IMG/VR virus record: IMGVR_UViG_3300033145_001841
Coordinates: 240-64,239 of that record
From: a virus
Lineage: Duplodnaviria > Caudoviricetes
DNA: 64,000 bases
Direction: 5' to 3' (one strand)
Shown here: one piece after another, positions 22,165-37,721 of the stretch
How positions within the stretch are numbered: position 1 is the stretch's first letter
Layout: each line of letters begins with the position of its first letter
Made by a program: the position numbers and the translations under genes
Notes under the pieces: model-generated
What the model was told of the DNA's origin: nothing
Database searches by the model: none
Seen by the model: the letters and a program-made list of their open reading frames with translations, nothing else

Positions 22165-22239
22165 CTTTTGTTGATTCTTGTCTTGTCTGGTCTTGTCATG
22201 TCCTGTCATGTCGGGTCATGTCTCGTCATGTCACGTCGC
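22165..22239 (-). repeat. pentamer array C, (GAC-NN)x12 + conserved tail; candidate guide RNA
   Basis: Plus-strand GTC every 5 nt from 22180 to 22237; tail CTTTTGTTGATTCTTGTC. Confidence 0.9.
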
Positions 22240-22246
22240 ATTAAAA

Positions 22247-22741
22247 TTATCCCCCTGAAAAAGCCTCAAGGGTTTTCCCAATTGGCAATTCTTTTTGAAC
22301 CTGCTGAACCCTGTTTTCAATCCGTTTGATGCTGCCAGGCTTCGTGAAAGCGTACATGGCCCCTAAAACGCTCATCGCGGTGTTGTGTTTGACCCTCGCT
22401 TCGTTTGGCATGGCGTCAAAATCGCTGATACTCGAAACTTGCCGGATGCCATTTCTTGCAGTCCTTCTGATGCGCTTAATGAAGTGTTCTGATGTAGAGA
22501 CGGTTTCTTCTTGGGATAACCGCTTAAGCCCGACTCCCCGCACAGTGCCAAATGTGATTTGATTATCCTTTTGGGCCATTCTTCGCGCCGTATGCAGATT
22601 CCCATACGCCACTGATTGAACGTCACGGTTGATGGTCTGGGAAAGATCCGGGTAGGTGATGGTTTCCCCTTCAGGAACTTCGATCAGTTTTTCATAAAGG
22701 GTGCGGCTGTCGATGCTGAGTTCTTCGATGCCTTTGGCCAT
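22247..22741 (-). CDS. partner protein of the Cas7-like gene (possible winged-helix N-terminus)
   Basis: 164 aa between arrays B and C; AAGGAG RBS continuous with the array tail; GETITYPDLS...VRGVGL pattern. Confidence 0.6.
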   Translation of the reverse strand: MAKGIEELSIDSRTLYEKLIEVPEGETITYPDLSQTINRDVQSVAYGNLHTARRMAQKDNQITFGTVRGVGLKRLSQEETVSTSEHFIKRIRRTARNGIRQVSSISDFDAMPNEARVKHNTAMSVLGAMYAFTKPGSIKRIENRVQQVQKELPIGKTLEAFSGG

Positions 22742-22750
22742 TTGTTGCTC

Positions 22751-22885
22751 CTTTTGTTGATTCTTGTCGCGTCTTGTCCCGTCTTGTCGAGTCACGTCGA
22801 GTCAAGTCAAGTCGTGACTTGTCGAGTCGTGTCATGGCTTGTCGCTTCTAACCTCGTCGTGTCATGCCTGGTCAAGTCTGGTCTG
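22751..22885 (-). repeat. pentamer array B, about 24 units (GAC-NN) + conserved tail
   Basis: GTC (5 degenerate units) in unbroken 5-nt register from 22766 to 22883. Confidence 0.9.
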
Positions 22886-22886
22886 G

Positions 22887-23453
22887 CTAAGACCACTTAA
22901 TATCTTTCACAACAAACCGGCCGTTGTACCCACCGTTTTCAGGTCGAAAAACACCAACCCCGATGAAATTACCGCTTTCCGTCACGTGCTGTTCAAGCAC
23001 TTCCCGGGTAATGGTTTCGTCAAGGATGAAGTAGGTGACATCCCCGCCCCATTCGTGGATAGTGGGGAAGCATTTGGCAACCCTGGGGCCAGCAGACCCA
23101 CGCTTTCCTTGGCTGTTCCCAAAAATCCACACACCATCGACATCATCCTTTTTAACTGATAATTTCAAGCCATCTGTAACCAATATCCCGGCCAGGAAAT
23201 GCTTTGTGAATGTGGCCTTGCCCCCACCTTTCCCCGGAACCTTCATGCTGAGAAAGCTCGCCGCGCGTTCAAGGGCTTTCTTAAAAGCCATAGGCGGAAT
23301 GAAAATGTACCCGTCATTGTCGGCATGGCATTTCTCGCGCCAGGTTCTTTTTTCAAAATCGTCTTTGCTCTCTTTTTCAAGGGGCTCAGTTTGGTGGTAT
23401 CGCCCCTGCTGATATGGAGCGATGCCTTCAATTGTTACGATTGCCGTTTTCAT
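22887..23453 (-). CDS. stand-alone RAMP / Cas7-like protein 1
   Basis: N-terminal strand VTIEGIAPY, IFIPPMAFKKAL (RAMP IP-x-x-x-x-K helix) and C-terminal Gly-rich loop GNFIGVGVFRPENGGYNGRF. Confidence 0.75.
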   Translation of the reverse strand: MKTAIVTIEGIAPYQQGRYHQTEPLEKESKDDFEKRTWREKCHADNDGYIFIPPMAFKKALERAASFLSMKVPGKGGGKATFTKHFLAGILVTDGLKLSVKKDDVDGVWIFGNSQGKRGSAGPRVAKCFPTIHEWGGDVTYFILDETITREVLEQHVTESGNFIGVGVFRPENGGYNGRFVVKDIKWS

Positions 23454-23462
23454 TTGATCCTC

Positions 23463-23572
23463 CTTTTGTTGATTCTTGTCTTGTCTGGTCTTGTCAGGTC
23501 TGGTCGCGTCGCGTCTCGTCTCGTCAAGTCAAGTCAAGTCGGGTCAGGTCATGTCAAGTCATGTTTAGTCAT
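23463..23572 (-). repeat. pentamer array A, 19 units (GAC-NN) + conserved tail
   Basis: GTC every 5 nt from 23478 to 23570 (one GTT). Confidence 0.92.
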
Positions 23573-23758
23573 ATTTAAAGTTATTTGGTTAACTCATTAA
23601 CTGGGCTTCTTGCCGTGCCAAACCGCCCGTCCGAGATGCTTCGTAGACGCCTGCTCTATCCGCTGCCAAGCTGCCCACCGGGCGGGATGCGCTCAATCCA
23701 CATGGGATATTGGCGACTTTTTCCCGGTTGTCGGTGGGGTGCTTGACTGTTGGGTGTG

Positions 23759-28185: not shown

Positions 28186-28629
28186 ATGCAAATTATAGCC
28201 GACACACGCGAGCAAACCCCTTACCAGTTCGCTACCATTACCCCCCGCCCGGATGTTGTACGCCAAACACTCCAAACGGGCGATTATTCGTTGATCGGAT
28301 TTGAAGACCGGATCACCATTGAAAGAAAAAGTAAAAGCGATCTTTTTAGCAGCTTAGGAAAAGGACGCAAGCGTTTTATCCGAGAGCTTGAGCGCATGCA
28401 AAATTTCAACTTCGCTGCAATTCTCATAGAAGCCAACTGGCATTCAGTTTTAAGACAACCCCCAACGCGATCAAAGATGAATCCAGTGTCCGTCTATGTG
28501 TCATTGATTGCCTTTGCCATACGGTACGGGATCCACTGTTGGCCGTGTGAGAATAGGGCCATGGCTGAGAGAACATGTTATCGGATGCTCGAACGCTATT
28601 GGAAAGATCATCATAAGGGAATTAGATGA
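28186..28629 (+). CDS. ERCC4/XPF-domain nuclease
   Basis: IIADTREQ...LQTGDYS...IERKS motifs. Confidence 0.9.
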   Translation: MQIIADTREQTPYQFATITPRPDVVRQTLQTGDYSLIGFEDRITIERKSKSDLFSSLGKGRKRFIRELERMQNFNFAAILIEANWHSVLRQPPTRSKMNPVSVYVSLIAFAIRYGIHCWPCENRAMAERTCYRMLERYWKDHHKGIR

Positions 28630-29513
28630 AAGCCCAACAATATAAAATTGATAATGGTGTTGAATTCCAGAAATGTAATGTGTGTGAAAAATGGAAATTT
28701 ATTAGTGACTTTCATAGAGATAAATCAAAGAAACGAGGGTTTAGATATAAATGCAAAGTTTGTACTAAAAAATATGATGTTGATTACTTAAAAAGAAATC
28801 GTGAAAAGCGATCCAAGCAACATAGAGAATGGAGAATAAATAATAGAGATCGGCATAACGAATTGAATTCCAGATGGCGCAATAATAATCTTGAAAAAGC
28901 AAGAGCAAGTGGTCGAAAGTGCTATCATAAACATAAAGATGAACGACGATTGTGGTCAATCGAATATTACATAAAAAACAAAAATAATATTAGACCAAAA
29001 AAGAAAAAATGGAAAATTGAAAATTTTGGAAAAGTAAAAAAAACGAGTGCCATTTATTATCAAAAAAACAAGGAAAGACATAAAAAATGGATGAAGGAGT
29101 ATTATAAAAACAATAAAGACAAATACAGGGAAAGTGCTCGAAAATATTATAATACACCAAAAGGGAGAACATCCTTAAACATTTCTCGTAGAATAGCATT
29201 TACCCTAAAAGGCAAAAAGGGTGGAAGACACTGGGAAGACATTGTTGGATATTCAGTAGAACAACTCATTTTCAGGCTGAAGAAAACAATGCCAAAGGGA
29301 TATACATGGGATGATTATTTAAATGGAGAACTACATATTGATCATAAGATTCCTATTGCGGTTTTTAACTATGAAACGCCAGACGATTTAGATTTTAAAA
29401 AATGTTGGGCTCTTAAAAATTTACAACTTCTTCCTGCGGGTAAAAATTTGTCTAAAGGGGCTAAAATTGATAGGCCTTTCCAGCCATCATTGTTATTGAG
29501 GGCTCAATTTTGA
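28626..29513 (+). CDS. HNH endonuclease, Lys/Arg-rich
   Basis: CNVC...CKVC and LHIDHKIP...NLQLL...NLSKG; AT-rich. Confidence 0.8.
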   Translation: MKAQQYKIDNGVEFQKCNVCEKWKFISDFHRDKSKKRGFRYKCKVCTKKYDVDYLKRNREKRSKQHREWRINNRDRHNELNSRWRNNNLEKARASGRKCYHKHKDERRLWSIEYYIKNKNNIRPKKKKWKIENFGKVKKTSAIYYQKNKERHKKWMKEYYKNNKDKYRESARKYYNTPKGRTSLNISRRIAFTLKGKKGGRHWEDIVGYSVEQLIFRLKKTMPKGYTWDDYLNGELHIDHKIPIAVFNYETPDDLDFKKCWALKNLQLLPAGKNLSKGAKIDRPFQPSLLLRAQF

Positions 29514-33444: not shown

Positions 33445-34036
33445 ATGCAGATATTGCCAAACAGCGCTATCCGGACAGGGGAAACAAGTCTGTTCATCCG
33501 TCGAATGCCAGGAACGGATGAAGCGAGAACGAATGATGAAAGGCCGGGAAAATGCCAAGGCGCGAAACGATAAAAAAAGAGAAAAACGCCTGCGAGAGAA
33601 TCCGGTCCACTGCGTTCGCTGTGGGTTGCTCTTCACTCTGGAAGACAGTCTGAAATCTCCCGCGTGCCATCACCCAGATTGTCAAAATTGGTGGGCGAGC
33701 GAGGTGATCCGCCGGAGAGAAGTGCGACAAGCGGCAAATGCGAAAAAGAAACCAAAGAAGCGTAGGGTGGTCCAGGCCCCACATGATTCCAGGGAGATCC
33801 CACCGGAGGAGTTCTTTTCTCAAGCGATTTACGACCGTGAACAAGCGGCAAATGCGAAAAAGAACAAACGAACGTGCATGGGCGACAACTGCAACAAGTC
33901 GACCTTCGGGCCAAACCATTTTTGCGACACCTGCCGGGCAAGGAATTTCAGGATTGCAGACGGGTCGCTGACGGACGGGCATTGGGGTGGCGGAGATGGG
34001 GATAAACGGCGGGCTTTTCAGGGGGTGTTGGGATGA
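33437..34036 (+). CDS. multi-zinc-finger protein
   Basis: CRYC, CSSVEC, CVRC and CDTC motifs. Confidence 0.6.
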   Translation: MPKCRYCQTALSGQGKQVCSSVECQERMKRERMMKGRENAKARNDKKREKRLRENPVHCVRCGLLFTLEDSLKSPACHHPDCQNWWASEVIRRREVRQAANAKKKPKKRRVVQAPHDSREIPPEEFFSQAIYDREQAANAKKNKRTCMGDNCNKSTFGPNHFCDTCRARNFRIADGSLTDGHWGGGDGDKRRAFQGVLG

Positions 34037-34064
34037 AATCGTTTTACATCAAGGAGGCAAGGGC

Positions 34065-34385
34065 ATGAACAGGAATGATTTTGATAGGCTGGTGGTTCGG
34101 CGATGTGAAAAATCTAAAAAAGTTTTGGCGGGTAAAGCATCAGAATATGCGTCAACGGATGATCGGTTTCACAATTTCCATGTTGCGGCAGCGGCAAAAG
34201 GGGAAACCCCGGAAGAAGCCCTCTGGGGAATGTATATGAAACATTTCGTGAGCGTGCAGGATATGGTTCAAAGCGACGCGACCCCAACACAGGCATGGAT
34301 TGATGAAAAGATTGGGGATTCCATCAATTACCACATACTGCTTGAGGGGTTATTTACAACGGAGGTGAAAAACATGGATCCTTAA
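34065..34385 (+). CDS. phage all-alpha protein (nucleotide-modification-associated / DUF1599-like)
   Basis: KASEYA...DRFHNF...KH...EKIGDSINY. Confidence 0.6.
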   Translation: MNRNDFDRLVVRRCEKSKKVLAGKASEYASTDDRFHNFHVAAAAKGETPEEALWGMYMKHFVSVQDMVQSDATPTQAWIDEKIGDSINYHILLEGLFTTEVKNMDP

Positions 34386-34448
34386 AATTATATCTCGTCT
34401 AATATTTAATAATGCCAAAACGCTAAACCAAAAGAGGAGATAAGCAAA

Positions 34449-35171
34449 ATGGCGAAAACAATAAAAAGTTACACGATAAAAGTGGTGGGGGAAGCTGAAA
34501 GCCCCTTCCGTGGTGCTGTCCCGGAATCAATTGAATCTCTCATTAAGAAGCCGTCAAAAGACGTGGCAAGCCTGATCTACCAGGCGGTCAAAGCTCAAGT
34601 TGAAATGTGTACCCAGGCGGGGGATGTTGCGGGTGCATGGGAAGCGATTAAGAAATATCAGTCAGAGCAATTTCAGTATTCATGTCCGTTAAATACATTC
34701 AAACGAGATCATCAAAATGGTGAGCGTCCATATCAAGGAGCACATACGGTTTTCGGTGCTTTTCGTGATGGTGCTCGGTTTATCTTCCCTGAATTTTTCT
34801 ATGAAAAAGGCATTACAGGTGGAACAAAACGGCCCTCAAAGACACACCTGCGAAAGTTCGTCATTGTCCGGCCCAATCATATCTTTTTTTACAGGCCGGA
34901 TTTAGCAGGTGAAATTATTACGGAGCCGGATTCTGTTGAAGGCCAACAGCCGGTTGCTGATGTCAAGGGGTTCGCCCGGTATGAAGTAATCAACAGCCCT
35001 TTTCAGTTCCAGTTCCAAATATCAGTCAACCCCAGGGGCATGTACGAGAAGTTTTTGAGCAACCAGGATAAGGCGCTTGACGCCTTACACCAGGGGGTTA
35101 ATCATGGCTTGGGGGCTGGCAGGAGCGCTGGATATGGCATGTGGAAGATCGTTAGCGCGGAAATATTATAG
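34449..35171 (+). CDS. stand-alone RAMP / Cas7(Csm3)-like protein 2
   Basis: N-terminal strand IKVVGEAESPFRG, PYQGAHTVFGAFRD, ARYEVI and the classic RAMP G-loop GLGAGRSAGYG at the C-terminus. Confidence 0.75.
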   Translation: MAKTIKSYTIKVVGEAESPFRGAVPESIESLIKKPSKDVASLIYQAVKAQVEMCTQAGDVAGAWEAIKKYQSEQFQYSCPLNTFKRDHQNGERPYQGAHTVFGAFRDGARFIFPEFFYEKGITGGTKRPSKTHLRKFVIVRPNHIFFYRPDLAGEIITEPDSVEGQQPVADVKGFARYEVINSPFQFQFQISVNPRGMYEKFLSNQDKALDALHQGVNHGLGAGRSAGYGMWKIVSAEIL

Positions 35172-35175
35172 GTTT

Positions 35176-35895
35176 TTCGTTGTGTGCCATATTATTTGAC
35201 TTAATTGGATACCGTGCAATAGAATAAGGTCATATATGTCTTAAAGGTATAATGAAATAGGGTGGTGTAGAATAATTAGCTTGCTGTTTTTTTCCATTGT
35301 GTCCATTGGGGTTTCATTAGGTTCTTAATATAGCATCTTGTTTTGTCCGTTGAGTTCCCGTGCCGTGTAGTGGCGTGCGATTTAATAATCATCACTTCAC
35401 ATACGATAACATAAAGTGCGATGCAGTGGCGTTACATGGTTTCATATCATACCATCGCGTTCCATAGGTAATGCGTTGTTGTATGGTCCTATGCAATACC
35501 GTCATTTCGGTTCATATCCGGTTCTGTAAACATGCGGTTATATGCTATGATGATGCAAGGTCAACGATGGAATTTTTTGCTGTTTGGCCTCGTACGGTTG
35601 GGTTGCGCGAAATAACATAGGATCTGATGCTGTATATAGTGTTCTTTCAGTTGCAATTTGATTAGGTGCCATCCCATGCGATATGATAAAATTTCATTGC
35701 CTTTGCAAAATGGTGTTTTATTGGTTCCAATCTTGTGGTATACAGTGCGATGCAATACTTATTTAGTTCGATGTTCTTCAACTCGATTCGATATGGTAAA
35801 TATTTCAATGCGAAAACATATGATTCCATGTGGTCGCCTCATGTTCGGTACGATGCAGTGCTTACACAAAATAAAATAGAGCTGTTCCGATGTAA
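35176..35895 (+). repeat. cryptic 5-nt-period array (NNN-RT)n; candidate guide-RNA locus
   Basis: In-register runs of pentamers ending GT/AT: 35176-35235 (11 of 12), 35398-35437 (8 of 8) and 35653-35697 (9 of 9), with occasional register slips. Confidence 0.8.
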
Positions 35896-35932
35896 GCGAA
35901 TTCTAAAACTTTCACGGAAAGGGGGTGAGAAT

Positions 35933-36160
35933 ATGAGTGAAGTCAGAGAAATCATGATCGAAACCATGAAAGGCGTTCGTGACGGTAGTTGCCCACTGGA
36001 TACCGCAAAGGAAATCCATCTGGCTGGCCACAGGGCCGTCATGGATGTTTACGCAGGTTGTAAACAAAAACGTATGGGGATTCAAGCAAAAGTCACATTT
36101 AAAGCACTGGAAGCCATGAGGCAGGTAAAATCCAATAAAGATGAGATGCAAAAAATATAG
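35933..36160 (+). CDS. small partner protein between NNN-RT arrays
   Basis: GGGGGTG RBS then MSEVREIMIETMKGVRDG..., 75 aa. Confidence 0.6.
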   Translation: MSEVREIMIETMKGVRDGSCPLDTAKEIHLAGHRAVMDVYAGCKQKRMGIQAKVTFKALEAMRQVKSNKDEMQKI

Positions 36161-36168
36161 CATCATTT

Positions 36169-36246
36169 TTGATTTTGTTTCGTGTTGTGGGATAACATAT
36201 GATCGGATATCATGACATGATTCGAGGATGGGGTGGTGCCATGGGT
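36169..36246 (+). repeat. second (NNN-RT)n array
   Basis: TTGAT TTTGT TTCGT GTTGT GGGAT AACAT ATGAT CGGAT ATCAT GACAT: 10 consecutive units at 36169-36218. Confidence 0.8.
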
Positions 36247-36315
36247 AAAATTGACCCATCAGCTAACAAGATGTTGGTGTTGTTCCCACGGGGGTGGGGA
36301 TGAGTCGATGGCCCT

Positions 36316-36552
36316 CTACAGGAGCTTGACAAGAGCGGCAACGATGGCGATTGACGCGGCGGAAATCGCGCCCATACGCATTGTGAGACGCGCCTCAAGC
36401 TCTTTCAGATCTATTTTGGTTGCAAGGTCTGCAATGGTAGTTTCATGGGATTCCTTGAATGCCTCAGAGATGGCTTCCGCCTGTTCTTCCGCAAAGCCGG
36501 ACGCTTTTAACCTTTTAACAAATTTATGTGTGTCGAACGTGATGGTAGTCAT
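36316..36552 (-). CDS. DUF1640/CCDC90-like coiled-coil membrane protein
   Basis: FDTHKFVKRLKASGFAEEQAEAI...LATKIDL and a C-terminal TM helix. Confidence 0.85.
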   Translation of the reverse strand: MTTITFDTHKFVKRLKASGFAEEQAEAISEAFKESHETTIADLATKIDLKELEARLTMRMGAISAASIAIVAALVKLL

Positions 36553-36610
36553 AATATGAACCTCCTGAAACAAAAATATAGCGGATCACTCAAAACGTCA
36601 ACATTTTTTG

Positions 36611-36639
36611 TTGACAACCGCCTAATCCACGAGTATTCT
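36611..36639 (+). promoter_or_regulatory. sigma70 promoter of the antirepressor unit
   Basis: TTGACA-17 nt-TATTCT, followed by a structured leader. Confidence 0.6.
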
Positions 36640-36884
36640 TGCGTTGCCGTGGCATAATCCACGGCCCGGATTAGAAAGCCGGAATACTCGTAAGGTGCGC
36701 AAGCGCCTAAACCATAGAGCGCTTTTTTTATGCTCTGTGAACCCTTGGCGGGTTGTGCGCGGGAGCCTTCGGGCTCGCCGGTTTCCTTACGGGCCGGTCT
36801 TTCTAACCGTGTGCATCCCGCCTTTTTTTATTAGAAAGAAGAAAAGGCGGATCTCTTCCAACTCTTCACGTAAGGAGGTTCGTC

Positions 36885-37721
36885 ATGAACAAACCCACCA
36901 GCCCGTCCACCGATCTTATCCCCATCAACTCGAATATGGGAGGCAAGCGCACGGTCAATGCGCGAGATTTGCATGAATTCCTGGAATCCAAGCAAGACTT
37001 TTCCACATGGATCAAGAAGCGAGTCAAACAATACGGCTTTCTCGAAAATCTTGACTTTCTCATTATCCCAAGTGCTCCACAAAAAAATGGAGCGCTAAAA
37101 TCAACAACTTACGGACAGTCCCGAATCGATTACCACCTAACCATGGACATGGCCAAAGAGCTGTCCATGGTCGAGCGAACAGAGAAAGGACGTCAGGCCA
37201 GACGGTATTTCATCCAATGTGAGAAAATCGCCCGTGGTCAGGCCCAGCCCCTTGCCGCTCCAACCCCGGCACAGATCCCCGCCAAAATCGAAACCCTCAC
37301 CCCGGTCCAGTGGACCGAAGTCAAAAAACTGGTCTTAGGAAAAGCTCAGCGAAATGTAGGCGATAAAAAACCGACCAAAAACGATTACATCAAAATCTAC
37401 CGGTCCATCAAGGAAGAATTTCAGGTTGCCAAAAGCTCAGACGTGCCACAGACACGGTTCAACGAGCTGCGGGCCTTTCTCGGAGACGCATGGAGCGTAG
37501 TGCCCCTTGAGGATGAGGACATCTCAAACGCCTACCTGTACGTGCTGAAACAGGACGCCGAGCATGCTGTCGGATATATAATGGAGCGTATGAACAGCAT
37601 CATGACCGAAATGCTGAATATTTCAAATGCGGTTGGCGTGGTGTTCCCGGAAGAGCTGAAGGCGCAAGGCAACCGTGGCTTCGTGCCCGAACGCGTGATG
37701 ACGGAAGGGGGTGTGTTATGA
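36885..37721 (+). CDS. AntA/AntB-family antirepressor
   Basis: VNARDLHEFLESKQDFSTWIK...DYHLTMDMAKELSMVER...GRQARRYFIQCE. Confidence 0.92.
   Translation: MNKPTSPSTDLIPINSNMGGKRTVNARDLHEFLESKQDFSTWIKKRVKQYGFLENLDFLIIPSAPQKNGALKSTTYGQSRIDYHLTMDMAKELSMVERTEKGRQARRYFIQCEKIARGQAQPLAAPTPAQIPAKIETLTPVQWTEVKKLVLGKAQRNVGDKKPTKNDYIKIYRSIKEEFQVAKSSDVPQTRFNELRAFLGDAWSVVPLEDEDISNAYLYVLKQDAEHAVGYIMERMNSIMTEMLNISNAVGVVFPEELKAQGNRGFVPERVMTEGGVL

What the first reader, a model, noticed from the sequence alone, without database searches (positions are those of the whole stretch)
34449..36246. Cas7/RAMP-like gene followed by about 800 nt of hidden 5-nt-period DNA (NNN-RT)n: candidate new RNA-guided system
Seen: the 240-aa protein ends in the RAMP glycine loop GLGAGRSAGYG. 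The DNA after it looks random but is built of pentamers whose last two bases are GT or AT while the first three vary: 11 of 12 units at 35176-35235, 8 of 8 at 35398-35437 and 9 of 9 at 35653-35697. After a 75-aa gene there are 10 of 10 at 36169-36218. Ten in a row has a rough chance of (1/8)^10 per position at even base composition. No long repeat exists, so repeat and CRISPR finders would miss it. Established: Cas7-family RAMPs polymerise on RNA with a fixed nucleotide step. Inference: one subunit binds each pentamer through the RT anchor and displays the variable bases as a gapped guide, and register slips may mark borders between individual guides. I recall a recently reported phage family (VIPR) of Cas7-like proteins with GGY/NN RNAs but cannot verify it here. 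An anchor reduced to RT would be a different code.
Basis: partly seen in the sequence, partly recalled or inferred. Interest (0 to 1): 0.95.

Follow-up and report, generated by a model that had tools for sequence, protein, structure and literature searches.

The report
Phage VIPR-like guide array, A/G-U anchor
A phage gene for a CRISPR-type RNA-binding protein is followed by about 800 bases built from five-letter units with only the last two letters fixed, most likely an unusual version of the recently described VIPR guide-RNA systems that phages use to silence rival DNA.

Summary
The DNA after the 240-aa gene is built of NNN-R-T pentamers. The lag-5 autocorrelation of R-T is 0.41, against 0.00 +/- 0.04 in 1000 shuffles (z 10.6).

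The protein has a Cas7-type RAMP fold (Z 12.0 to Csm3). In 9 of 10 distinct homologous loci the same period-5 array lies downstream of the gene, while the array sequences themselves are unrelated. All 10 also carry a conserved ~75-aa partner gene.

It is therefore not a new kind of system.

It differs from published VIPR in three ways:
- The anchor is (A>G>U)-U rather than GGY.
- Three positions vary, not two.
- The protein shows no detectable sequence relation to SUSP1 Vipr, and 6 of 25 family members touch the Pfam CRISPR RAMP model.

RNA strand, processing, RNA binding and targets are untested. Local target tests found nothing above controls.

A true Vipr homologue with (GAC-NN)n arrays lies 11 kb away in the same phage.

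This scan has noted many VIPR-like loci on other DNA, including an "A-T type" array. None of them shares this protein's sequence.

The parts
34449..35171 (+). Gene for a 240-aa stand-alone Cas7-fold RAMP protein, here called Vipr-like B, with a C-terminal glycine loop
   Evidence: ORF with RBS. AlphaFold2 model with pLDDT 82.4 and pTM 0.70. VIA-align Z 12.0 to Csm3 9g9a_D and 11.7 to Cmr4 6s6b_I; rows 1-36 are all CRISPR RAMPs. Foldseek against PDB gives 107 hits at E<=0.001, the top ones Cmr4, type VII Cas7 and Csm3. Pfam RAMPs scores E 0.037, below the cut-off. 6 of 25 family members match it at E<=0.1, best 1.3e-5.
35172..35880 (+). Array 1: about 13 tracts of 4-21 pentamers of the form N-N-N-(A>G>T)-T, separated by register slips. 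These are candidate guide RNAs (vrRNA-like).
   Evidence: No ORF of 75 aa or more lies wholly within the array. The sequence does not align with the arrays of relatives, even at 88% protein identity. RNA folding is not significant on either strand, with z from -1.1 to +1.6.
35196..35225 (+). Promoter-like site TTGACT-18-TAGAAT inside the first tract
   Evidence: 10 of 12 matches. The number of such sites in the region (7) is not above shuffles (6.3 +/- 3.0), so this is only a lead.
35859..35898 (+). Hairpin (7-bp stem GCTTACA/TGTAAGC, 24-nt loop) between the end of array 1 and the partner gene's RBS
   Evidence: The stem is present in the window, L001, L007 (one G-U pair) and L009. It is not evident in the other 7 of 11 aligned loci. 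RNAfold gives -12.7 kcal/mol for 35851-35932. Function unknown.
35933..36160 (+). Gene for a conserved 75-aa helical partner protein, a candidate accessory (vap-like) gene
   Evidence: A strong RBS lies before the ATG. Homologues follow the RAMP gene in all 10 distinct relative loci; the L007 copy is cut by the contig end. AlphaFold2 gives pLDDT 88: one short helix plus one helix of about 50 residues. No Pfam, PHROG or PADLOC family matches.
36159..36238 (+). Array 2: 10 of 10 perfect units at 36169-36218, with a few more units on either side
   Evidence: Relatives also carry arrays after the partner gene.

Best explanation
This is a phage-encoded VIPR-class RNA-guided module built on a RAMP family different from the published Vipr.

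Proposed mechanism:
- The operon of RAMP gene, array 1, partner gene and array 2 is transcribed on the + strand.
- The long transcript is cut, or starts internally, at or near the register slips. This yields guides of roughly 6-20 pentamers.
- One RAMP protomer binds each pentamer. The G-loop and thumb hold the nearly invariant U and the preceding A/G.
- The two or three variable bases of each unit are left exposed. Together they read a gapped sequence in the DNA of a rival phage or other mobile element, or of a host gene, and silence it.
- The 75-aa helical protein is the accessory factor.

Shown here: the fold, the periodic array and its statistics, the hypervariability of the array, the conserved linkage of gene, array and partner with a fixed orientation, and the viral, CRISPR-free context.

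Inferred by analogy with SUSP1 VIPR: transcription, processing at the slips, one protomer per unit, DNA targeting and silencing. The number of bases read per unit and the skip rule are unknown.
For: - Fold. Cas7-type RAMP with a C-terminal G-loop.
- Periodicity. z is 10.6 against shuffles. T stands at position 5 in 122 of 133 units, R at position 4 in 115 of 133, and positions 1-3 are near-uniform.
- Conservation of the feature. Downstream lag-5 is 0.19-0.37 in 15 of 16 fetched loci, which is 9 of 10 distinct loci. Upstream flanks, scored where 150 nt or more were held (15 loci), give -0.12 to 0.07 in 14; L007 has 0.19 upstream. The exception downstream is L018 at 0.04, with only 578 nt held.
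- Tracts. There are 76 tracts in 10 loci with a median of about 10 units. This compares with 9-16 repeats in published vrRNAs.
- Hypervariability. The arrays do not align between loci, apart from one 36-nt match to L001, whereas the partner gene does.
- Fixed orientation. With the phase set by the palindromic AT alone, in-phase GT:AC is 127:18 and TT:AA is 82:12. GT exceeds AC in 9 of 9 loci that gave units.
- Partner gene. Conserved in all distinct loci.
- Independence from the other system. None of the 18 fetched loci (86 kb) holds the phage's other Vipr or GAC-NN arrays, so the arrays go with this protein.
- Context. Primase-MCM helicase, ERCC4 nuclease, antirepressor and integrase. The record is an IMG/VR virus record with no Cas1 and no CRISPR-like repeats.
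- Family range. The family is small and viral: 33 clusters at 90% identity, 48 representatives among 1.84 billion proteins, and Atlas clusters that are 88-100% Viruses.
- Precedent. VIPR biology and structure, staggered arrays and non-GGY motifs with Vipr-like folds.
Against: - There is no RNA evidence of any kind. No sequencing run was listed.
- The strand of the RNA is not settled. On the opposite strand the units read A-(U>C>A)-N-N-N, which also resembles x-A-Y/NN and the GAC-NN of the phage's other system.
- No target was found. Under 7 reading rules, 58 tracts searched against 115 kb (the phage plus relatives' loci) did no better than unit-shuffled controls.
- No conserved 3' tail like that of type II vrRNAs was found. 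No ribozyme was found.
- The family profile does not match SUSP1 Vipr among PDB sequences at E<=10. hhalign against the phage's true Vipr family gives a probability of 0.1%. Membership of the Vipr protein family is therefore not shown.
- Promoter-like and terminator-like sites are not above shuffles.
Confidence: 0.72

Rival explanations
1. The system is the same, but the guides are transcribed from the - strand, antisense to the two genes. The units then read x-A-Y/N-N: an invariant A followed by a pyrimidine. This is like the G-A-C/NN of the phage's canonical VIPR and the purine-excluding Y pocket of SUSP1 Vipr.
For: On the - strand the anchor is A (89-99%) followed by U>C>A. SUSP1 Vipr holds Y3 in a pocket that excludes purines. 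System A in the same phage uses G-A-C. Neither strand shows significant folding.
Against: Both arrays flank + strand genes with no room for a - strand promoter between array 1 and the partner gene. The only promoter-like sites in the array are on +. In the phage's canonical system the fixed triplet reads on the gene strand. Position 3 on the + strand has a weak G excess (0.33-0.46). That gives g-R-U, the purine-purine-pyrimidine order of GGY and GAC.
Confidence: 0.18
2. The RAMP coats a periodic RNA, but the complex is not a sequence-specific guide. It could be a scaffold, a decoy or sponge (for example against a rival's or the host's RAMP-based system), or an autoregulatory leader.
For: No target was found. 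Satellites are reported to use stand-alone vrRNAs as decoys (abstract of 10.64898/2026.10.15.759431). The phage carries a second, different pentamer system.
Against: Positions 1-3 are near-uniform and turn over completely between phages whose proteins are 88% identical. That is expected of specificity-bearing guides and not of a scaffold. The local database was tiny, so the absence of targets says little.
Confidence: 0.07
3. The period-5 pattern is a feature of the DNA itself, such as phased A-T steps at half a helical turn, iterons, an origin or a packaging signal. It is only coincidentally next to the RAMP gene.
For: Five bases is about half a helical turn, and AT is palindromic. No RNA evidence exists.
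Against: Register slips every 30-100 nt destroy any long-range helical phasing. The non-palindromic part of the signal has a fixed orientation relative to the gene, with GT exceeding AC in 9 of 9 loci. The feature travels with this gene through otherwise different neighbourhoods. The only other such DNA in the window lies beside a true Vipr homologue.
Confidence: 0.03

Closest known systems
Type II VIPR of Escherichia phage SUSP1 and the Pseudomonas fulva prophage (Vipr + vap1 + YNNGG vrRNAs; bioRxiv 10.64898/2026.04.26.720920 and .720927; PDB 36pp)
   Same: A lone RAMP gene with a small partner gene and long intergenic tracts of 5-nt units, in which fixed letters alternate with hypervariable ones. 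The context is a phage without cas genes or CRISPR repeats. Tract length is similar (about 10 units against 9-16).
   Different: The anchor is (A>G>U)-U with at most a weak G before it, not G-G-Y. Three positions are near-free rather than two. No invariant 3' tail was found. The protein is 240 aa with a two-helix insertion (residues 37-73 of the model). It shows no detectable sequence relation to SUSP1 Vipr. The partner is a 75-aa helical hairpin of no known family.
Published non-canonical VIPR arrays: NNNGG, YNNNG and NNNNG repeats and 'staggered' arrays (first VIPR paper, Methods and fig. S18 legend); GAC/NN, CAC/NN, WGT/NN and TGH/NN clusters (bioRxiv 10.64898/2026.10.21.760802)
   Same: The anchors are reduced or altered, yet the 5-nt step is kept. 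Guides follow one another with register shifts and without spacers or tails. A RAMP-fold protein lies nearby.
   Different: No motif with A as the preferred purine followed by an invariant U is named in the text I read. The figures and tables listing all motifs (fig. S17, data S4, fig. S10A) could not be seen. Slips here are mixed (-1, +1, +2, +3), not only the 1-nt overlap described.
Cas7 backbone subunits of class 1 CRISPR effectors (Csm3, Cmr4, type VII Cas7, Csf2)
   Same: This is the best structural match: Z 10-12 over 142-179 aligned residues. It has the RRM core, thumb-like hairpin and C-terminal glycine loop. 6 of 25 family members touch Pfam PF03787.
   Different: There is no CRISPR array, no other cas gene and no Cas1. 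The RNA period implied by the array is 5 nt, not 6. The gene sits in a phage.
The canonical VIPR locus of the same phage (window 22165-23572, - strand)
   Same: Same phage and same plan: RAMP gene, partner gene and pentamer arrays read on the gene strand, with a purine-pyrimidine pair at the end of the anchor.
   Different: That protein is a true Vipr homologue (family profile against SUSP1 Vipr, E 2.5e-8). It belongs to a large family of at least 243 clusters. Its units are strict G-A-C/N-N, and its arrays end in a shared tail that runs into the next gene's RBS.

Membership tests
VIPR system (as a class) | Stand-alone RAMP-fold protein (RRM core, thumb, G-loop) outside any CRISPR-Cas locus | tested here: met
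   Fold searches. G-loop GLGAGRSAGYG, with G222, R225 and G230 invariant in 25 sequences. No Cas1 and no CRISPR-like repeats in the 64,239-base record. The record is only 78% complete by CheckV's estimate.
VIPR system (as a class) | Flanking intergenic tracts of tandem 5-nt units with fixed and hypervariable positions | tested here: met
   Conserved in 9 of 10 distinct relative loci. The sequence is hypervariable between loci.
VIPR system (as a class) | Repeat consensus GGY/NN (YNNGG) or a published related consensus | tested here: not met
   Position 4 is A 0.62-0.67 and G 0.18-0.30. Position 5 is T 0.89-0.99. G-G is rare. The published alternatives named in text all keep a G or differ otherwise. 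The full motif lists are in figures and supplements that I could not see.
VIPR system (as a class) | vrRNAs are expressed as roughly 100-nt RNAs and co-purify with the protein | not testable with these tools
   No sequencing run was listed.
VIPR system (as a class) | Guides read DNA non-contiguously (1-nt skip rule) and match rival mobile elements | tested here: inconclusive
   Seven reading rules were tried on 115 kb of local sequence with shuffled-unit controls, and nothing exceeded the controls. No public collection was searched with the gapped patterns.
VIPR system (as a class) | Accessory (vap) gene next to vipr | tested here: inconclusive
   A conserved 75-aa partner is present in all distinct loci. 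Homology to vap1-6 could not be tested because no vap sequences were at hand.
VIPR system (as a class) | Mostly viral or proviral location | tested here: met
   Phage replication, antirepressor and integrase genes. IMG/VR virus record. Relatives lie on IMG/VR contigs. Atlas clusters are 88-100% Viruses.
Vipr protein family (PSI-BLAST family seeded on X1U2U4; includes SUSP1 Vipr) | Detectable sequence homology to known Vipr proteins | tested here: not met
   The profile of 25 family members finds no Vipr chain among PDB sequences at E<=10. The same test on the phage's other RAMP family gives E 2.5e-8. hhalign between the two families gives a probability of 0.1%. An 8-round PSI-BLAST, as in the paper, was not reproduced.
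CRISPR-Cas Cas7 (Csm3/Cmr4 group) | Cas7 fold | tested here: met
   Z 12.0 (rmsd 3.8, 162 aligned) to Csm3 9g9a_D and Z 11.7 to Cmr4 6s6b_I.
CRISPR-Cas Cas7 (Csm3/Cmr4 group) | Encoded in a cas operon next to a CRISPR array, with a 6-nt crRNA register | tested here: not met
   No CRISPR-like repeats and no Cas1. The only other RAMP is the phage's Vipr homologue. The array period is 5 nt.

The most novel reading that the evidence does not exclude
This small viral family is a RAMP lineage separate from the published Vipr clade and nearer to the Csm3/Cmr4 backbone proteins. It either reached a 5-nt non-contiguous guide code independently or kept it from an intermediate stage. In this reading it grips only two letters (R-U) and displays three. 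Its target geometry (three read per five) would then differ from the published 'two read, one skipped' rule. That would place a second, orthogonal pentamer code in one phage alongside a canonical VIPR. It would also give a living test case for the proposed path from VIPR to class 1 CRISPR.
Probability: 0.2. Interest if true: 0.8.

Novelty: new variant of a known kind. Interest (0 to 1): 0.55.

Why it matters
VIPR was described only in 2026, and its rules (GGY grip, two letters read, one target base skipped) rest on one clade.

This locus is a natural version with three differences. Only two letters are gripped, and these are mainly A-U. Three letters are free. The protein is not recognisably a Vipr by sequence and looks more like a type III backbone subunit.

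If it works as proposed, several things follow:
- The protein-RNA grip and perhaps the reading frame of these guides can be rewritten.
- It offers a second orthogonal scaffold for programmable DNA binding.
- It bears on whether CRISPR RAMPs descend from Vipr-like viral proteins or whether phages have also recruited Cas7-like proteins.

The same phage carries a canonical VIPR, so the two systems can be compared in one genetic background.

Tried and rejected
- Chance or composition artefact. Rejected by dinucleotide shuffles and by conservation in relatives.
- Coding region. No ORF of 75 aa or more lies wholly within the array.
- Known RNA families. An Rfam scan of 33900-36700 at E<=1 found nothing in the array and no hammerhead.
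- Conserved tail or handle. Repeat and k-mer searches found only words of the form RT-NNN-RT shared between loci. 3'-end logos of 76 tracts showed no extra conserved position.
- Window-specific word. GTGCGATGCART and close variants occur 4 times, each 12-21 nt before a slip. This remains unexplained.
- Folding. z scores of -1.1 to +1.6 on both strands did not settle the strand.
- RT versus AY orientation test. It was confounded because AT is palindromic. I replaced it with the GT:AC and TT:AA counts under an AT-only phase.
- Targets. Window tracts and then 58 tracts from 10 loci were tested under 7 rules (NNN with 0, 1 or 2 skipped; NN of positions 1-2 with 0, 1 or 2 skipped; NN of positions 2-3 with 1 skipped). 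The database was the phage plus loci. Observed means equalled shuffled controls. The only perfect hits were arrays matching their own duplicate contigs. The best single hits were 17 of 20 (an L015 tract on window 29009-29037) and 14 of 16 (a window tract on the L010 RAMP gene). By my own binomial estimate, not from a call, both are within chance.
- Relatives of the phage as target sources. The primase-helicase gave no IMG/VR match.
- Homologues elsewhere. None in 50,697 GenBank phage records by tblastn at E<=10. None in GTDB species genomes by the peptide-pattern scan.
- RNA evidence. No sequencing run was listed as a holder of the locus, RNA or DNA.
I used the search for related loci instead.
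- Accessions. Cluster look-up gave no accession numbers or useful names.
- Unused tools. Complex prediction was not used because I do not claim that the two proteins bind. The small helical protein was not sent to a fold search, since a two-helix model gives meaningless matches.
- Supplements. The supplements of both VIPR papers and of the language-model paper were not seen. Fig. S17, data S4 and tables S2-S3 of the first, and fig. S10A of the last, may already list this family or motif.
Full report
THE OBSERVATION. The ORF at 34449-35171 encodes 240 aa and ends in GLGAGRSAGYG.

Over 35172-35932 the autocorrelation of R-T dinucleotides is 0.41 at lag 5, 0.35 at lag 10 and 0.23 at lag 15. It is negative at the lags in between. 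One thousand dinucleotide-preserving shuffles give -0.001 +/- 0.039 with a maximum of 0.133, so z is 10.6. The longest exact chain is 9 units, against a shuffle maximum of 7.

A phase-tracking pass divides 35172-35880 into about 13 tracts of 4-21 units with register slips between them. Of 133 in-phase units, 106 end in R-T (64 AT, 42 GT), 14 end in TT, and T is at position 5 in 122. Positions 1-3 are close to uniform.

Across the whole window, chains of 7 or more occur only on the + strand and only at this locus and at 22177-23574.

THE PROTEIN. Pfam gives only a sub-threshold RAMPs match (E 0.037, 14.9 bits against a cut-off of 22.1). An AlphaFold2 model built on 25 homologues has pLDDT 82.4 and pTM 0.70.

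Foldseek against the PDB returns 107 hits at E<=0.001. The top hits are Cmr4, type VII Cas7 and Csm3. An exhaustive alignment against 48,161 chains gives Z 12.0 (rmsd 3.8, 162 residues) to Csm3 9g9a_D, 11.7 to Cmr4 6s6b_I and 11.4 to Csm3 6ae2_B. Rows 1-36 are all CRISPR RAMPs, and RNase P Pop5-type RRM proteins follow at Z about 7. In the viral structure library, three hits reach E<=0.001. One of them is annotated as a Cas-associated RAMP of a siphovirus.

The family is small and metagenomic:
- 33 clusters at 90% identity.
- 48 representatives at 50% identity among 1.84 billion proteins.
- No match in 50,697 GenBank phage records.
- No match in the species-representative genomes.
- The nearest Atlas clusters are 88-100% viral.

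IS THE ARRAY LINKED TO THE GENE? I fetched 18 loci that encode relatives at 38-88% identity. Several are the same contig held twice or near-identical contigs, which leaves 10 distinct loci.

In 15 of the 16 loci analysed (L004 and L005 were left out as duplicates of L002 and L003), lag-5 R-T autocorrelation in the 800 nt downstream is 0.19-0.37. Upstream flanks were scored in the 15 loci that hold at least 150 nt upstream (L008 does not). They give -0.12 to 0.07 in 14 of them. L007 has 0.19 upstream, so arrays can also lie on that side. The exception downstream is L018 (38% identity, 0.04), where only 578 nt are held and much of that is the partner gene.

Phase tracking finds 76 tracts in 10 loci (the window plus nine of the ten distinct relatives; L018 was left out), with a median of about 10 units.

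The arrays themselves are not alignable between loci, even where the proteins are 88% identical. Only the partner gene aligns, plus one 36-nt stretch. So the 5-nt frame is conserved and the content turns over. That is the signature of guide arrays.

None of the 18 loci contains the phage's other RAMP or any GAC-NN array. The arrays therefore belong with this protein.

THE PARTNER. A 75-aa gene (35933-36160) with a strong ribosome-binding site follows array 1. Homologues (MSEIR...VRxGxxP...TA...HR.V) follow the RAMP gene in every distinct locus, either directly or after an array. The model is one short helix plus one helix of about 50 residues, with pLDDT 88. No Pfam, PHROG or PADLOC family matches it.

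A hairpin at 35859-35898 precedes the gene. Its stem is kept in four of eleven aligned loci.

WHAT IT IS. I read the Results and several Methods sections of bioRxiv 10.64898/2026.04.26.720920 and section 5 of 10.64898/2026.04.26.720927. These papers report the following:
- VIPR loci are phage-borne and consist of a lone RAMP (Vipr), an accessory vap gene and intergenic vrRNAs of 9-16 YNNGG units.
- One protomer binds each unit, GGY is sequestered, and NN pairs with DNA while every third target base is skipped.
- Seven types exist.
- Alternative repeats NNNGG, YNNNG and NNNNG exist.
- 'Staggered' arrays exist in which one guide ends where the next begins.

A later preprint, 10.64898/2026.10.21.760802 (passages and section 4.22 read), reports 99 period-5 clusters. 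Of these, 21 are non-canonical, including GAC/NN, CAC/NN, WGT/NN and TGH/NN.

The present locus has the same anatomy and context. It sits in a virus record estimated 78% complete, with primase-MCM helicase, ERCC4 nuclease, antirepressor and integrase genes. There is no Cas1 and no CRISPR-like repeat.

HOW IT DIFFERS.
(a) The anchor. U is nearly invariant (0.89-0.99). The base before it is A>G>U (0.62-0.67, 0.18-0.30, about 0.1). The base before that shows at most a weak G excess (0.33-0.46). So the units read (g)-R-U/N-N, or N-N-N/R-U. I found no such motif in the text of the three papers.
(b) The protein. A profile of the family finds no Vipr among PDB sequences at E<=10. hhalign against the phage's own true Vipr family gives a probability of 0.1%. 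Yet 6 of 25 members match Pfam RAMPs (best 1.3e-5), against 0 of 25 for the true Vipr family. It may thus stand nearer to CRISPR Cas7 proteins than to published Viprs. This rests on weak sequence scores, and I had no structure of a Vipr to compare.
(c) Other features. No invariant 3' tail and no ribozyme were found. Slips are of mixed size: -1 in 15 cases, +1 in 12, +2 in 9, and +3 or -2 in 8, among the 50 junctions with gaps of 14 nt or less; two +4 gaps make up the rest.

STRAND. AT is palindromic, so my first RT-versus-AY test was confounded. With the phase fixed by AT alone, in-phase GT outnumbers AC 127 to 18 and TT outnumbers AA 82 to 12. GT exceeds AC in 9 of 9 loci that gave units. The feature therefore has a fixed polarity relative to the gene.

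The polarity alone does not say which strand is the RNA. I favour the gene strand for four reasons:
- The arrays lie between co-directional genes.
- The only promoter-like sites in the array are on the + strand.
- The phage's canonical system reads its fixed triplet on the gene strand.
- g-R-U has the purine-purine-pyrimidine order of GGY.

The opposite reading (x-A-Y/NN) is a live rival at about 0.18.

TARGETS. I tested the window's tracts, and then 58 tracts of 8 or more units from 10 loci, under seven reading rules. The database was the phage and all loci (115 kb, both strands), with shuffled-unit controls. Observed and control means were equal for six of the seven rules (for example 0.691 against 0.694 for 'positions 1-2, skip 1'). 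The seventh, NNN with two skipped, was higher (0.644 against 0.599) only because arrays matched their own duplicate contigs. No other hit stood out.

This agrees with the published absence of self-targeting, but it says nothing about real targets. It is the first computational next step. No sequencing run was listed for the locus.

THE SECOND SYSTEM. On the - strand at 22165-23572 the window holds a 188-aa protein. Its family profile matches the SUSP1 Vipr chain 36pp_D at E 2.5e-8. It is flanked by strict (GAC-NN)n arrays that end in a shared tail running into the next gene's RBS. GAC/NN is a published non-canonical motif. I mention it because it shows that one phage carries two different pentamer systems.

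EARLIER NOTES OF THIS SCAN. Many VIPR-type loci have been noted on other DNA; 665 notes hold the search words. These include an 'A-T type' array beside a lone RAMP in a giant phage (e1-5860241, unchecked by me). None shares sequence with this protein or locus.

VERDICT. It is best filed as a new variant of the VIPR class with an R-U anchor and a distinct, Cas7-like protein family. Confidence is 0.72, and function is inferred, not shown.

Noticed in passing
window 22165-23572 (- strand): A second pentamer system in the same phage. The family profile of a 188-aa protein (22887-23453) matches the SUSP1 Vipr chain 36pp_D at E 2.5e-8. It is flanked by strict (GAC-NN)n arrays at about 23570-23475, 22890-22750 and 22241-22177. 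The arrays share a tail that runs into the RBS of the next gene. A 166-aa partner gene lies at 22247-22747.
   Followed up: partly
window 36633-36685 (+), upstream of 36885-37721: A sub-threshold Rfam match to c4-a1b1, the targets of the P1/P7 c4 antisense RNA (28.3 bits against a gathering score of 46.7, E 1.9e-4). It lies just upstream of an AntA/AntB-type antirepressor gene and may be a P1-like c4/ant immunity module.
   Followed up: no
window 35375-35392, 35416-35432, 35745-35762, 35848-35865: A window-specific word, GTGCGATGCART and close variants, recurs four times in register with the pentamers. Each copy lies 12-21 nt before a register slip. It could be a processing or 3'-end signal. 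It is not shared with other loci.
   Followed up: partly
window 35858-35932 and the equivalent stretch in L001-L018: The 75 nt before the partner gene's ATG translate in frame to a loosely conserved W/H-x-L-K-x-x-L-K-x-G-G in most loci. Several loci have an upstream ATG, and the window has a GTG at 35858. This may be a longer N-terminus, or it may reflect conservation of the hairpin plus the RBS.
   Followed up: partly
L007:1-583: In this relative the 583 nt upstream of the RAMP gene also show the period-5 R-T signal (lag-5 0.19). Arrays of this family can therefore lie on both sides of the gene.
   Followed up: no
window 29009-29037 (- strand match), inside gene 28626-29513: A 10-unit tract of relative L015 matches this site in the window's endonuclease VII-like gene at 17 of 20 letters under 'read two, skip one'. 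It matches at 21 of 30 if the third letters are counted. By my estimate this is within chance for the number of tests, so it is only a lead.
   Followed up: partly
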